A stretch of 64,000 nt of DNA from a virus. Positions 3,909-64,000 of the stretch are shown in pieces. The translations under genes were made by a program, and so were the position numbers. Position 1 is the stretch's first letter; every line of letters begins with the position of its first letter. The notes below the pieces were generated by a model that saw only the letters and a program-made list of their open reading frames with translations, did not search any database and was not told the DNA's origin. The stretch covers positions 26,157 through 90,156 of IMG/VR virus record IMGVR_UViG_3300020119_000126; one strand, given 5' to 3'.

Positions 3909-5081
3909 CTAGACCTTCTTCAGATATTCAGACTTGATCCACGCCGGGAGTAGAACTTGCGTCCAGCCAGACTGGTCGCCTACCGCTTCTATCTGTTCGC
4001 CTGTATTCATCATCTTGATGATGGTGCCATTAGGGGTCAGGCGAACACGAACAGGACCATCCACTACTTCGGCTGTGCCGTAAATAGGTTCTGGCTGCTT
4101 TGTCTGGACAAAGAGGCATTGCCTGCCGTAGCCCATGTCAGTCAGCGCCTTATCGACCTGACCTGTTGGTACAACGAGGCTTTTGCCGCTATTAGGTGCC
4201 CAATAGTCAGGGTCATGAATAATAAAATTATCCTGATCGTCGTATCCTATAACGACAAAAAAGTGCCCATCACTGCCCGGCACCCTATCAGCCTGATCCA
4301 GTCGGCCTAGAATATCCCTATAAGCGACAAGACAAATAACAGGTCGGCCTGCATCAATCTCTGCCTTGATAGTGGGAATAGCGACGTTGCTCACGGTCTT
4401 GGTGGTCAGGTTATAGAGGCCAGCCAGAGTCACAAGCTGCGGCACGGTTAGACCCGCATCGGTATAGCGCAGTGGCGTGTCCATACTCAGGCGGTCAACT
4501 GTGGCATTAGACTTATTGTAGAAAGCTAACAGCATGGCTACGCAGGCGACTCCACAGTCGTTTCTACGGCCATTAGCTCCAATGCCCCATTGTGTGATGT
4601 AAGGTACGTTGAGAGTGACCACTTTAGATTCCTTTGGCAAAACTTGAATGAATTGATTATCCATTGCAGCTAGACCCTGGCTAAGATGCTCTGGCGTGAT
4701 ATCTTGACGGCCAATATTCGGATCAATGATGGTAAAATTCGGCGTGCCGAACCCAATCACGACGATAGCGTGTGGTCCATACCAATCTACAGCCACAATG
4801 ACTGGTCTACCTTGACGCAGTTCTGACCTGAGATAATCCAGGGTCAGGCCAATGCCATAAGTCACAGGCACGCCCTGGCTGGTGATGAAGTCGGAGAGGT
4901 CCATCAGGTAGACCCCTGTATCTGCCTTTGGCATCAGACGGGCACTAATCTGATCTACAGTTATAGTAAGTTTGCTATAAAACTTCAGCAGCATAGCCGC
5001 GCAGGTCGGGGCACAGTCATTGATGAACTTACCTGCATCGGGTTCGGTTTGCAGGAGCACAGGGACATTGATAATGGTCAT
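3909..5081 (-). CDS. Tandem C39-like (papain-fold) cysteine peptidase with C-terminal SH3b-like domain; probable endolysin or cell-wall hydrolase
   Basis: Two copies of Q..NDCxxxCxAM / HxxVVIG / IxDP; C-terminal 'VRVRLTPNG...GWTQV...WIKSEYL' resembles SH3b. Confidence 0.7.
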   Translation of the reverse strand: MTIINVPVLLQTEPDAGKFINDCAPTCAAMLLKFYSKLTITVDQISARLMPKADTGVYLMDLSDFITSQGVPVTYGIGLTLDYLRSELRQGRPVIVAVDWYGPHAIVVIGFGTPNFTIIDPNIGRQDITPEHLSQGLAAMDNQFIQVLPKESKVVTLNVPYITQWGIGANGRRNDCGVACVAMLLAFYNKSNATVDRLSMDTPLRYTDAGLTVPQLVTLAGLYNLTTKTVSNVAIPTIKAEIDAGRPVICLVAYRDILGRLDQADRVPGSDGHFFVVIGYDDQDNFIIHDPDYWAPNSGKSLVVPTGQVDKALTDMGYGRQCLFVQTKQPEPIYGTAEVVDGPVRVRLTPNGTIIKMMNTGEQIEAVGDQSGWTQVLLPAWIKSEYLKKV

Positions 5082-62611: not shown

Positions 62612-62896
62612 ATGGTCGGAGAGAAACCTTGCACTCGTTGTGGGTATAGCTACCCCAACGATAATGAACACTTCTCCTACACTAGCTCACGAGGGGTCAG
62701 GTATTTGCGAAGCATCTGCAAGCCCTGTCAGGCTCTCGACAGCGCCGCACATTACCAACAGAATAAGCAAAAGCTCAAAGCTCAACATGTAGAATACAAC
62801 CGGCGCTACCGCGCCGAGCATCGTGACGCCTATAACTTCAAGAACAGACAGTATCGCCAGCGGAAGTCGTGGGCAGACGCAGAAGGATCAGAATGA
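62612..62896 (+). CDS. Zinc-ribbon protein resembling the N-terminal module of phage HNH/EndoVII nucleases
   Basis: CTRC...F.......RSICKPC followed by a basic helix; no HNH catalytic domain. Confidence 0.55.
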   Translation: MVGEKPCTRCGYSYPNDNEHFSYTSSRGVRYLRSICKPCQALDSAAHYQQNKQKLKAQHVEYNRRYRAEHRDAYNFKNRQYRQRKSWADAEGSE

Positions 62897-63132
62897 AACT
62901 CAGAGTTATCTTCCATGATAATACAATACGAGACTTCCAAGTCAACGGTCAAGTAGAGCTTGACCAAGTCTATGAAATGGTCAGACGGCAGCCTGCCCCT
63001 ATGCAAGAGTACACTCGTGGTACAGGGTACAGCCAGGAAATGCTAACCTTCAAGTACAATGATGGCAAAGACTTCGCCTGTATCAATATGGGTACAGTCA
63101 AAGCCATCCTCACCGTTCGAGATGACTGTTAG
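62893..63132 (+). CDS. Hypothetical protein
   Basis: ATGA overlap; AAGGA SD. Confidence 0.55.
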   Translation: MKLRVIFHDNTIRDFQVNGQVELDQVYEMVRRQPAPMQEYTRGTGYSQEMLTFKYNDGKDFACINMGTVKAILTVRDDC

Positions 63133-63240
63133 TGAATAATGAGCGGGTCGAAGTGTAAGGGTTACCAAGCGAAAATGACCGCAACCCCTTGTGCTAAACG
63201 GTCACCAGTGTCCCTCGCACATAACCTTATCCGCTCTTAT

Positions 63241-63312
63241 TGTCAGATAGCTCAAAGGCCGAGCGCGGTGCTGTTAACACCGGAGATGTAGGTTCGAGTC
63301 CTACTCTGACAG
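63241..63312 (+). tRNA. tRNA-Asn(GTT)
   Basis: Acceptor TGTCAGA/TCTGACA; anticodon arm CGGTG-CTGTTAA-CACCG; T arm GTAGG-TTCGAGT-CCTAC; G73; no encoded CCA. Confidence 0.9.
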
Positions 63313-63546
63313 CTAGAGGTATGCGATTGCAAGCGCTATCCTTGAACGCGGGGGTTTATCCCTTCCACGTTAGGCACGCAGTATTCCCAACTATGCGACC
63401 CATCCATGCTGGTTGCGCTGAGGGAAGGGCTAGAGGTCATGGTGATGTGCGCCCTACTGCTACGACCTGTAGGGGCTGACCCCCTAGACCAAAAGAGGTC
63501 AGAGATTGTTCTGGCAGTCTTAATCGTAAAACCAAGACTGCACTAT

Positions 63547-63617
63547 CCTGCTCAAGCTGACTGGAAGGCAAGTGCCTGTAGAGCACTCGGTACATAGTTC
63601 GATTCTATGGAGCAGGA
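63547..63617 (+). tRNA. Atypical tRNA-Tyr(GTA): C1:G72, short variable loop
   Basis: Acceptor CCTGCTC/GAGCAGG with A73; anticodon arm AGTGC-CTGTAGA-GCACT; T arm CATAG-TTCGATT-CTATG. Confidence 0.7.
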
Positions 63618-63746
63618 CTTGACCTGGTGAAGCCATGTCAATCTCCCTATGGGAAGACTTCATGAAGCTAAACCATCAGCCCTAGTTATAAAAGCTCTAG
63701 GGTAGCAGCACTGGTAATGATGGCTAGGAGTTTAAGCTGCTTCAGA

Positions 63747-63819
63747 CCTTCTGTAGCTCACTTGGATAGAGCATCAGGCGAAAGCCTGAAGGATGCAGGT
63801 TCGAATCCTGCCAGAAGGT
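63747..63819 (+). ncRNA. tRNA-like RNA with the anticodon loop replaced by a GAAA tetraloop
   Basis: Perfect acceptor (CCTTCTG/CAGAAGG), D arm and T arm; anticodon arm is TCAGGC-GAAA-GCCTGA. Confidence 0.75.
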
Positions 63820-64000
63820 TTTGGTAGATGAGGTATCTTGGTGTAAGGCATCGTCTGTGCAGTAGATACCATCCGTCGCACCTACTGTTAATAGCTACAA
63901 TGTGGTCGCACAACCTAGTAGCGGGTCGCGCTTTGAAATAACGGTTAAAGCCTGAACTCATCTATCTAAGGTCAGGATAACCTCGTGGGGGTCATGACCC

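What the first reader, a model, noticed from the sequence alone, without database searches (positions are those of the whole stretch)
63747..63819. Anticodon-less tRNA: intact cloverleaf capped by a GNRA tetraloop
Seen: the acceptor stem, U8-A9, D arm (GCTC-ACTTGGATA-GAGC, Arg-like with A20), 5-nt variable loop and T arm (GCAGG-TTCGAAT-CCTGC) are all canonical. The anticodon arm, however, is TCAGGC-GAAA-GCCTGA, with no U33 and no 7-nt loop. Perfect stems plus a stable tetraloop argue against random decay. Inference: a tRNA mimic that cannot decode. It could act as a decoy for anticodon nucleases or tRNA-sensing defences, a synthetase/EF-Tu sink, a non-ribosomal aminoacyl donor, or a processing signal for the neighbouring ncRNAs.
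Basis: partly seen in the sequence, partly recalled or inferred. Interest (0 to 1): 0.75.

Follow-up and report, generated by a model that had tools for sequence, protein, structure and literature searches.

The report
Anticodon-less tRNA mimic in phage
A 90-kb uncultured phage carries a gene for a tRNA-shaped RNA whose codon-reading loop is closed into a four-base cap, the same design as little-studied tRNA look-alikes in bacterial RNA-repair operons, so it is more likely a kept, non-decoding mimic than a broken tRNA.

Summary
Window 63747-63819 (+) is a perfect cloverleaf (Rfam tRNA 56.2 bits; ARAGORN 'tRNA-???') whose 16-nt anticodon arm folds as a 6-bp stem capped by GAAA, with no U33 and no 7-nt loop. 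It lies in a tRNA cluster of a 90,156-bp phage record.

The design recurs. A motif scan of IMG/VR gave 34 of 89 matches with a perfect 6-bp stem around GNRA (about 0.25 expected by chance), with 20 different stem/loop combinations. A matched GNYA control gave 6 of 49. UNCG-capped forms also exist. A covariance model built without the target scores it 76.9 bits, 15 bits above any normal tRNA searched.

In bacterial genomes, 24 of 34 such elements sit beside RtcB, Band-7 or RtcR genes, against 1 of 72 controls. This matches the predicted but unvalidated 'band 7-associated tRNA' of RNA-repair operons.

This phage has no RtcB, Band-7, Ro60 or PTH2 gene, only an RNA ligase in the same cluster. No orthologue could be recovered and no reads cover the loop.

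Best reading: a selected, non-decoding tRNA mimic with an Arg-like body, probably acting in the conflict over tRNA damage and repair. The function is inferred, not shown. Earlier notes of this scan report the same design on other DNA.

The parts
63747..63819 (+). Sealed-anticodon tRNA mimic (73 nt with the discriminator T); Arg-like body
   Evidence: class model R1 gives 76.9 bits
63774..63789 (+). Anticodon arm replaced by a 6-bp stem TCAGGC/GCCTGA capped by the GAAA tetraloop (63780-63783)
   Evidence: Sequence; minimum-energy fold
63744..63822 (+). Possible extension of the acceptor helix by leader/trailer pairing (A-1:T73, G-2:T74, A-3:T75); no CCA is encoded
   Evidence: Sequence; ARAGORN draws an 8th pair; extension counted as 3
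63241..63313 (+). Neighbouring normal tRNA-Asn(GTT), first gene of the cluster
63547..63618 (+). Neighbouring 72-nt tRNA with anticodon GTA (Tyr), C1-G72 and no long variable arm
   Evidence: (47.9 bits)
63874..64000 (.). 127-bp terminal repeat of the record; the tRNA cluster continues at the record's start (C1:1-6545), outside the window

Best explanation
This is a real gene for a non-decoding tRNA mimic. It derives from an Arg-type tRNA and keeps the whole L-shaped body: acceptor, D arm with G18 G19 A20, variable loop and T arm. The anticodon loop has been closed into a 6-bp helix with a GAAA cap, so it cannot read a codon and offers no anticodon loop to cut. It belongs to a recurrent class of sealed-anticodon tRNA look-alikes. 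The bacterial members of that class sit at the head of RtcR/Band-7/RtcB RNA-repair operons, and these are presumably the 'b7a-tRNA' predicted in 2016. The rest is inferred. The RNA is probably transcribed with the phage tRNA cluster and trimmed like a tRNA. It then probably acts through its tRNA body in the contest over tRNA damage, either as an uncleavable competitor for a host tRNA-cutting or tRNA-binding defence enzyme, or as a cofactor for RNA repair (the phage has an RNA ligase gene 3.7 kb downstream in the same cluster). The structure and the recurrence of the design are shown here. Expression, processing, binding partner and function are not.
For: The structure is intact: all 22 stem pairs are standard, the tetraloop fold is the minimum-energy fold, and 0 of 200 shuffles fold as well.

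The design recurs. In IMG/VR, 34 of 89 matches to AGAGC-N7-GNRA-N14-GGTTCRANTCC have a perfect 6-bp stem, where (6/16)^6 x 89 = 0.25 is expected, in 20 distinct stem/loop combinations. The matched GNYA control gave 6 of 49 (Fisher p = 0.0015). UNCG caps gave 28 of 119.

The sealed helix covaries: all 6 pairs change on both sides.

The target fits the class. Model R1, built from 30 class members without the target, gives it 76.9 bits, the top of 38 hits in 145,059 bases. The best normal tRNA scores 61.7.

The bacterial counterparts are linked to RNA repair. Of 34 loci with a perfect sealed element, 24 hold an RtcB, Band-7 or RtcR homologue, mostly within 5-460 nt, against 1 of 72 loci with 4 or fewer pairs (p = 7e-15).

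There is a published precedent. The b7a-tRNA is described next to Band-7 and RtcB (passage in 10.1101/312249). For the anticodon-loop-less YrlA tRNA-like domain, competitive inhibition of an anticodon nuclease has been proposed (passage in PMC7790460).

The local context fits. An RNA ligase (PF09414, E = 7e-14) lies inside the same tRNA cluster. A second tRNA-like gene with perfect stems and a 6-nt loop lies in the same genome. Relatives G005 and G009 carry tRNA-likes with closed arms of 7 bp + AAUU and 8 bp + UCA.
Against: No orthologue of this gene was recovered. IMG/VR holds no near copy. The closest accessible relatives, G005 (60% TerL identity) and G001 (52%), have other aberrant tRNA-likes, and G005's has acceptor and T-stem mismatches (z = -1.43), as decay would give.

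The genome lacks Band_7, RtcB, TROVE and PTH2 genes: 0 hits at E <= 1 in each.

At the level of whole records, phage records with class members are not enriched for RNA ligase PF09414: 8 of 49 against 14 of 49 control phage records. RtcB is in 7 of 49 and Band_7 in 5 of 49.

The motif scans impose the D-arm and T-arm motifs and the loop type. The rows of the covariation alignment were preselected for at least 5 of 6 pairs.

The C15/T48 pair is not canonical. There is no expression, processing or read evidence for this locus.
Confidence: 0.55

Rival explanations
1. A young pseudogene: a duplicated Arg-type tRNA gene that lost decoding by changes in the loop and is drifting without function in a fast-evolving tRNA cluster.
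For: The cluster looks fluid. Several tRNAs share acceptor stems, the 'Leu(tag)' and 'Tyr(gta)' genes have atypical class-I bodies, and a degenerate tRNA-like lies at C1:2133-2206. No orthologue was found in G005 or G001. G005's closed-arm tRNA-like has mismatches. The C15/T48 pair is odd.
Against: All 22 stem pairs are intact and the loop is an exact GNRA cap on an added C-G pair. Drift should break stems rather than build a sixth pair. The same end state recurs far above chance and with covariation. In bacteria it sits at a fixed place in operons.
Confidence: 0.2
2. An RNA-processing or punctuation element. The tRNA shape is kept only as a cleavage site for RNase P and 3'-end enzymes, to release flanking RNAs from the cluster transcript.
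For: The acceptor/T-arm half, which is enough for RNase P (established knowledge, recalled), is what G001's three tandem tRNA-likes keep while their anticodon arms differ or are absent. Leader/trailer pairing of 3 bp or more is commoner in sealed elements: 5 of 23 against 5 of 698.
Against: The element is flanked by normal tRNAs that would already serve as cleavage sites. The spacers are not clearly structured (z -0.9 to -2.1) and are not conserved. This reading does not explain why the D arm and an anticodon helix of normal length with a stable cap are kept.
Confidence: 0.12
3. A decoding tRNA with a 6-membered anticodon loop (CGAAAG), reading Phe-type codons or a doublet and so promoting frameshifting.
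For: ARAGORN offers 'Phe|Phe (aa)'. The same genome has a second tRNA-like with a 6-nt loop (CUUGUA).
Against: There is no U33. C32 and G38 pair, so the fold leaves a closed GAAA tetraloop in 71% of the ensemble. The body is Arg-like, not Phe-like. Sealed arms also occur with UNCG, AAUU and UCA caps, which share no anticodon logic.
Confidence: 0.04
4. An assembly artefact: a 1-nt deletion (of a T after C32) in a normal tRNA gene.
For: Inserting one T would give a formally 7-nt loop, CTGAAAG. The only public run found does not cover the site, so the loop has no independent read support here.
Against: The missing base would not lie in a homopolymer. The restored gene would be an odd hybrid, with a Phe anticodon on an Arg-like body and a C32-G38 pair. 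A second gene in the same record also has a 6-nt loop. The sealed design is found in dozens of independent assemblies.
Confidence: 0.04

Closest known systems
[quoted passage not shown] I know it only from a citing passage in 10.1101/312249 and from recall of the abstract; the paper itself was not held.
   Same: [quoted passage not shown] The bacterial elements I found beside Band-7, RtcB and RtcR have the same 6-bp + GNRA sealed anticodon arm as the target. The Burkholderia ones are the target's nearest sealed look-alikes, about 52 of 73 positions.
   Different: The target is in a phage tRNA cluster, with no Band-7, RtcB or RtcR gene in the genome. The only repair-type gene is an ATP-dependent RNA ligase. 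I could not check whether the 2016 paper describes the sealed loop or phage copies.
YrlA, the Y RNA-like RNA with a tRNA-like domain (Rfam RF02553)
   Same: It is a bacterial and phage tRNA mimic without an anticodon loop, encoded in rsr-yrlBA-rtcBA repair operons. It has been proposed as a repair cofactor or as a competitive inhibitor of an anticodon nuclease (passages).
   Different: The topology is inverted. In YrlA the acceptor stem is closed by a loop and the anticodon stem opens into the Ro60-binding stem. Here the acceptor is open and the anticodon stem is capped. The Rfam score is 21.5 bits against a gathering score of 69. The genome has no Ro60/TROVE gene.
Canonical tRNA (Rfam RF00005), in particular phage and bacterial tRNA-Arg
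   Same: Cloverleaf, T8 A9, G18 G19, A20, T-loop TTCGAAT; 56.2 bits. The nearest normal tRNAs are Arg.
   Different: The arm is 16 nt with no U33, no 7-nt loop and no C35. The discriminator is T. ARAGORN cannot assign an anticodon.
Sealed-anticodon tRNA mimics noted earlier in this scan, several behind a phage PTH2 gene (AI notes)
   Same: The same architecture: a tRNA body with a GNRA-capped anticodon stem, in phages.
   Different: This genome has no PTH2 gene, and only 8 of 49 phage records with class members have one. No CCA is encoded here. No quadruplet-reading tRNA is adjacent.
tmRNA tRNA-like domain; tRNA-like RNAs of murid herpesvirus 4; mascRNA (recalled; listings only)
   Same: They are tRNA-shaped RNAs that do not decode, yet are handled by tRNA-processing enzymes.
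   Different: tmRNA lacks the D stem and anticodon arm and carries an mRNA part, and ARAGORN finds no tmRNA here. The others are eukaryotic or eukaryotic-viral.

Membership tests
Decoding tRNA | Cloverleaf with conserved tertiary nucleotides; Rfam RF00005 above the gathering score | tested here: met
   56.2 bits against 29; fold
Decoding tRNA | 7-nt anticodon loop with U33 and an assignable anticodon | tested here: not met
   16-nt arm, 6 bp + GAAA; ARAGORN 'tRNA-???'
Sealed-anticodon tRNA mimic (informal class defined here) | tRNA body with a 6-bp anticodon stem capped by a stable tetraloop | tested here: met
   top hit (76.9 bits) of model R1, which was built without it; best normal tRNA 61.7
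Sealed-anticodon tRNA mimic (informal class defined here) | Sealed arm kept in orthologues of related genomes | tested here: inconclusive
   No orthologue found. G005 and G009 have other closed-arm tRNA-likes. The closest relatives were unreachable.
b7a-tRNA / Rtc RNA-repair operon RNA | Encoded next to Band-7 (SPFH) and RtcB, often divergent from RtcR | tested here: not met
   0 hits for PF01145 and PF01139 in the phage genome
b7a-tRNA / Rtc RNA-repair operon RNA | tRNA-like RNA with the same sealed architecture as the operon RNAs | tested here: met
   Operon elements in Enterovibrio, Burkholderia and Sphingomonas have 6 bp + GNRA
b7a-tRNA / Rtc RNA-repair operon RNA | Association with some RNA ligase | tested here: inconclusive
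   PF09414 ligase lies 3.7 kb away in the same cluster, but there is no record-level enrichment in phages: 8 of 49 against 14 of 49
YrlA (RF02553) | Score at or above the gathering score; closed acceptor and Ro60-binding stem; rsr gene nearby | tested here: not met
   21.5 bits against 69; no TROVE gene
PTH2-cassette tRNA mimic (earlier scan notes) | Directly behind a PTH2 (PF01981) gene | tested here: not met
   0 hits at E <= 1
tRNA pseudogene | Broken stems or lost conserved nucleotides | tested here: not met
   22 of 22 stem pairs are standard; only C15/T48 is unusual
Any functional small RNA | Expressed, processed, stable transcript | not testable with these tools
   No RNA data; the one run laid does not cover the site

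The most novel reading that the evidence does not exclude
Sealed-anticodon tRNA mimics are one widespread family of RNAs that has never been tested experimentally. On this reading they are shared by bacterial Rtc RNA-repair operons and by many phages, and phages have taken them up as counter-defence. The RNA keeps every feature a tRNA-cutting or tRNA-sensing defence enzyme grips, but offers nothing to cut and nothing to decode. It would therefore block the enzyme, or recruit a ligase to damaged tRNAs. This phage copy, with an Arg-type body, would be aimed at a defence that attacks tRNA-Arg.
Probability: 0.3. Interest if true: 0.85.

Novelty: new variant of a known kind. Interest (0 to 1): 0.6.

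Why it matters
Phage tRNA genes are usually read as codon supplements, or as replacements for host tRNAs cut by defence nucleases. A tRNA kept by selection without any anticodon shows that the tRNA body itself is useful to phages.

The link found here ties two things together. The same sealed design heads bacterial RtcR/Band-7/RtcB repair operons, and that matches an RNA predicted in 2016 and, according to the 2018 preprint read here, never validated experimentally.

This also gives concrete experiments in cultivable bacteria such as Enterovibrio and Burkholderia, and in cultured Vibrio phages that carry short-loop tRNA-likes mis-annotated as tRNA-Cys. It warns annotators that 'tRNA-undetermined', 'pseudo' or odd-anticodon calls in phages may hide a distinct RNA class.

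Tried and rejected
Read support. One public run (soil metagenome, share 0.16) was found and laid. Three 151-nt contigs matched at 62723-63378 and none covers 63747-63819, so the loop is neither confirmed nor refuted. No RNA holder was listed.

Close relatives.
- An exact 24-mer of the arm has 0 hits in IMG/VR.
- TerL as a single protein found no IMG/VR relative and no cultured phage.
- TerL homologues at 65-85% identity exist only on Logan or JGI contigs, which I could not fetch.
- The six JGI loci found could not be searched beyond 500-nt flanks and were dropped.

Acceptor/T-arm motif scan: 31 loci. By my reading, 15 are tRNA-Arg, 2 Asn, 2 Met, 4 odd tRNA-likes and 8 not tRNA. None has a sealed arm.

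Neighbouring ncRNAs. Spacer folds give z -0.9 to -2.1 with mononucleotide shuffles, and nothing but tRNAs is conserved with G005 or G001. No plus-strand sigma-70-like promoter or terminator lies next to the gene.

PTH2 lead from earlier notes. It is absent here and present in 8 of 49 class records.

Kinase of a Pnkp-type repair pair. Only weak P-loop matches (12 bits) were found.

Origin of the GNRA loop. I considered whether it is simply G34-N35-R36-A37 left after loss of U33. I rejected this as a general rule, because body type and loop do not match for the target (Arg body, GAAA loop) and UNCG, AAUU and UCA caps exist.

Unbiased census of closed arms in the held loci. It failed because my rule also caught normal loops of the form UU-NNN-AA. 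Only one incidental 16-nt arm (L305, loop TTCC) was real.

Gene neighbours of the solitary gut-phage elements. PHROG families were of unknown function, plus an anti-repressor and a helicase, which was not informative.

Literature. Searches found no paper describing phage tRNA genes with a tetraloop in place of the anticodon loop. Only the b7a-tRNA passage came close. I did not ask for supplementary files, and those of the 2016 paper may list such RNAs.

Rows dropped. Alignment A3 uses the target plus 30 of the 40 distinct sequences among the 51 hits with at least 5 of 6 pairs. Near-duplicates and those with a poorly defined acceptor were left out. L160 was left out, and L123 is not held.

Full report
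WHAT IS THERE

The window is the last 64 kb of a 90,156-bp IMG/VR virus record with a 127-bp terminal repeat. Weak PHROG hits identify a tailed phage: portal, large terminase and major head protein.

At 63747-63819 (+) the sequence reads: CCTTCTG, TA, GCTC-ACTTGGATA-GAGC, A, TCAGGC-GAAA-GCCTGA, AGGAT, GCAGG-TTCGAAT-CCTGC, CAGAAGG, T. Every stem is fully paired. The anticodon arm has 16 nt instead of 17. It has no U33, and C32 and G38 pair, which leaves a GAAA tetraloop.

- ARAGORN reports 'tRNA-???' with a 2-base anticodon.
- Rfam tRNA gives 56.2 bits.
- The minimum-energy fold is the cloverleaf with the 6-bp stem and tetraloop: -30.9 kcal/mol, 71% of the ensemble, z = -3.78, 0 of 200 shuffles as good.

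The only irregular tertiary position I see is C15/T48.

GENOMIC SETTING

The gene is the third of a tRNA cluster that runs across the record's ends. ARAGORN finds 15 genes in the whole record.

- Thirteen have normal loops: Asn, Tyr, His, Lys x2, Ser x2, Leu, Glu x2, Asp, Thr, Gly. There is no tRNA-Arg and no tRNA-Phe.
- Two have 6-nt loops: the target, and C1:5308-5378 with loop CUUGUA, which also has perfect stems (z = -3.56).
- A further degenerate tRNA-like lies at C1:2133-2206.
- An RNA ligase gene (PF09414, E = 7e-14) lies inside the cluster at C1:3505-4206.
- ThyX and a dCTP-deaminase-like gene precede the cluster, and ribonucleotide reductase follows it.
- The genome has no PTH2, TROVE/Ro60, Band_7 or RtcB gene: 0 hits at E <= 1 in each.

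ARTEFACT OR DECAY?

The one public run found does not cover the site, so this needs other evidence.

No near copy exists in IMG/VR.

More distant relatives were reached through a TerL alignment and searched for tRNAs.

- G005 (60% TerL identity) has nine normal tRNAs. Three bases upstream of its Tyr-like tRNA it has a tRNA-like whose arm folds as 7 bp + AAUU, but with mismatches in the acceptor and T stems.
- G009 (33%) has one with 8 bp + UCA.
- G001 (52%) has three tandem tRNA-likes. They share the same acceptor and T arms, but their anticodon arm is shortened, absent or enlarged.

Aberrant, closed or missing anticodon arms therefore recur in this lineage, but I found no true orthologue of the target.

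THE DESIGN IS A CLASS

I scanned IMG/VR for AGAGC-N7-GNRA-N14-GGTTCRANTCC. This spacing puts G where U33 should be.

- Of 89 matches, 34 have a perfect 6-bp stem around the tetraloop and 24 more have 5 of 6, in 20 distinct stem/loop combinations. By chance (6/16)^6 x 89 = 0.25 perfect stems are expected.
- A matched control with GNYA gave 6 perfect stems of 49 matches (Fisher p = 0.0015).
Of these, 75 are normal Arg-type tRNAs and 28 are perfect 6-bp + UNCG arms in 7 combinations, 20 of them from one family.
- In an alignment of the target with 30 distinct members, all six pairs of the sealed helix change on both sides. The covariation score is 0.903 against 0.21 for shuffles. The rows had been preselected for at least 5 of 6 pairs, so the percentage paired is not independent evidence.
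- A covariance model built from the 30 members without the target gives the target 76.9 bits. That is the best of 38 hits in 145 kb of tRNA-rich phage DNA, and the best normal tRNA scores 61.7. Under the general Rfam tRNA model the target scores below most of its normal neighbours.

Members occur both in large tRNA clusters of big phages, some with an encoded CCA end, and as solitary genes at a conserved place in gut phages of about 40-60 kb.

Leader/trailer pairing that lengthens the acceptor helix by 3 bp or more is seen in 5 of 23 strictly defined sealed elements, against 5 of 698 normal tRNAs. The target has 3 such pairs.

A cultured example of a related kind is the 'tRNA-Cys (anticodon ACA)' of Vibrio phage 1.122.A, whose arm is really TTCAC-TACAG-GTGAA.

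LINK TO RNA REPAIR

Pfam scans of the neighbours gave the following:

- Enterovibrio norvegicus: RtcR, divergent from the element, then Band-7 (SPFH), then RtcB.
- Burkholderia: the same, with RtcR, the element and Band-7.
- Sphingomonas: the element directly before RtcB.

By tblastn, 24 of the 34 loci with a perfect sealed element hold an RtcB, Band-7 or RtcR homologue within the 8-kb locus, mostly within 5-460 nt. Only 1 of 72 loci with 4 or fewer pairs does (p = 7e-15).

A passage in Wang et al. 2018 (10.1101/312249) describes just this. [quoted passage not shown] It credits this to Burroughs & Aravind 2016, says it is not validated experimentally, and suggests it is interchangeable with YrlA.

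A passage in Hughes et al. [quoted passage not shown]

I could not read the 2016 paper. I therefore do not know whether it notes the sealed loop or phage copies.

HOW FAR THIS CARRIES TO THE PHAGE GENE

The architecture is shared, but the gene context is not. This phage has none of Band-7, RtcB or RtcR, only an ATP-dependent RNA ligase in the cluster.

Across phage records with class members:
- RNA ligase PF09414 is in 8 of 49, against 14 of 49 control phage records with a normal Arg tRNA. There is no enrichment.
- RtcB is in 7 of 49.
- Band_7 is in 5 of 49.
- PTH2 is in 8 of 49.

The PTH2 cassette reported in earlier notes of this scan therefore covers only a subset and does not apply here.

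READING

The most likely account is a selected, non-decoding tRNA mimic derived from an Arg-type tRNA. Of the 31 loci that share its acceptor and T-arm motifs, 15 hold tRNA-Arg by my reading. Its nearest normal tRNAs are Arg, although that reference set is biased by the scan. It has A20 but lacks C35 and has T73, so charging by ArgRS is unlikely; that rests on recalled E. coli identity rules.

Sealing removes both decoding and any anticodon-loop cleavage site while keeping the tRNA body. By analogy with b7a-tRNA and YrlA, I infer a role in the conflict over tRNA damage, as a nuclease or sensor decoy or as a repair cofactor.

Shown here: the structure, the recurrence, the covariation, and the bacterial operon association. 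Inferred: expression, processing, partner and function.

Rivals are a young pseudogene (0.2), a processing signal (0.12), a decoding tRNA with a 6-nt loop (0.04) and an assembly artefact (0.04).

NOVELTY

Non-decoding tRNA mimics are a known kind (tmRNA domain, YrlA, b7a-tRNA). I found no paper that describes phage tRNA genes with a tetraloop in place of the anticodon loop. Earlier AI notes of this scan report the same design on other DNA: 156 notes in at least 143 genomes. This instance adds a case without PTH2, and the tie to bacterial Rtc operons.

Noticed in passing
L001:5308-5378 (= G000 C1, outside the window): A second tRNA-like gene with a 6-nt anticodon loop (CUUGUA) and perfect stems (z = -3.56). 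Its acceptor (CTCTCTG/CAGAGAG) and T arm resemble the target's. Leader/trailer pairing could extend the acceptor helix to about 11 bp. It lies directly after tRNA-Gly.
   Followed up: partly
L001:3505-4206 (+): An RNA ligase gene (PF09414, E = 7e-14) embedded in the phage tRNA cluster. No convincing polynucleotide kinase partner was found.
   Followed up: partly
window 63547-63618 (+) and L001:2331-2404 (+): The 'tRNA-Tyr(GTA)' is 72 nt with C1-G72 and no long variable arm. The 'tRNA-Leu(TAG)' is 74 nt and also lacks the long arm. Both are unusual for bacterial tRNAs of these types (recalled rule), and several tRNAs share the acceptor stem GCTCCTA. This suggests anticodon switching after duplication.
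   Followed up: no
L049:4732-5069 (minus strand; G001, 52% TerL relative): Three tandem tRNA-likes have the same acceptor (TGCGCTG/CAGCGC) and T arm. Their anticodon arm is, in turn, 3 bp + 7 nt, absent (58-nt element, Rfam tRNA 38.1 bits), or 6 bp + 19 nt. A fourth element with only the acceptor and T arm lies at 4582-4647.
   Followed up: partly
L101:11870-11984 (minus; G005): A full-length but sub-threshold match to YrlA (32.2 bits, gathering score 69, E = 5.7e-5 in the narrow search) lies just upstream of the tRNA cluster of the 60% TerL relative.
   Followed up: no
L195:1493-1566 (Vibrio phage 1.122.A, MG592496.1): The annotated 'tRNA-Cys, anticodon ACA' has a 15-nt anticodon arm (TTCAC-TACAG-GTGAA). 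It is a short-loop tRNA-like in a cultured phage, next to tRNA-Met and after a CsrA-like gene. Five sister Vibrio phage records match it too.
   Followed up: partly
L339, L352, L418, L431 (Enterovibrio/Vibrio); L340, L357, L363, L400, L423 (Burkholderia); L345, L360, L390, L396, L425 (Sphingomonas-type): GNRA-sealed tRNA-likes at the head of RtcR/Band-7/RtcB operons, with compensatory stem changes between species. L396 has two in tandem. The Sphingomonas-type ones have an unusual D region (GGGACTACAGG...).
   Followed up: partly
L115, L129, L173, L177 (gut-phage family with solitary sealed elements): These phage records also encode an RtcB (about 155 bits), but not within 4 kb of the element. 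The distance was not measured.
   Followed up: no
window 63758-63961 (-): A 67-aa open frame overlaps the tRNA mimic on the opposite strand. It has no supporting evidence and is probably spurious.
   Followed up: no
L102:3585-3659 (G009): ARAGORN calls this 'tRNA-SeC(tca)', but the fold gives an 8-bp stem with a UCA triloop. It is more likely another closed-arm tRNA-like than an opal suppressor.
   Followed up: partly
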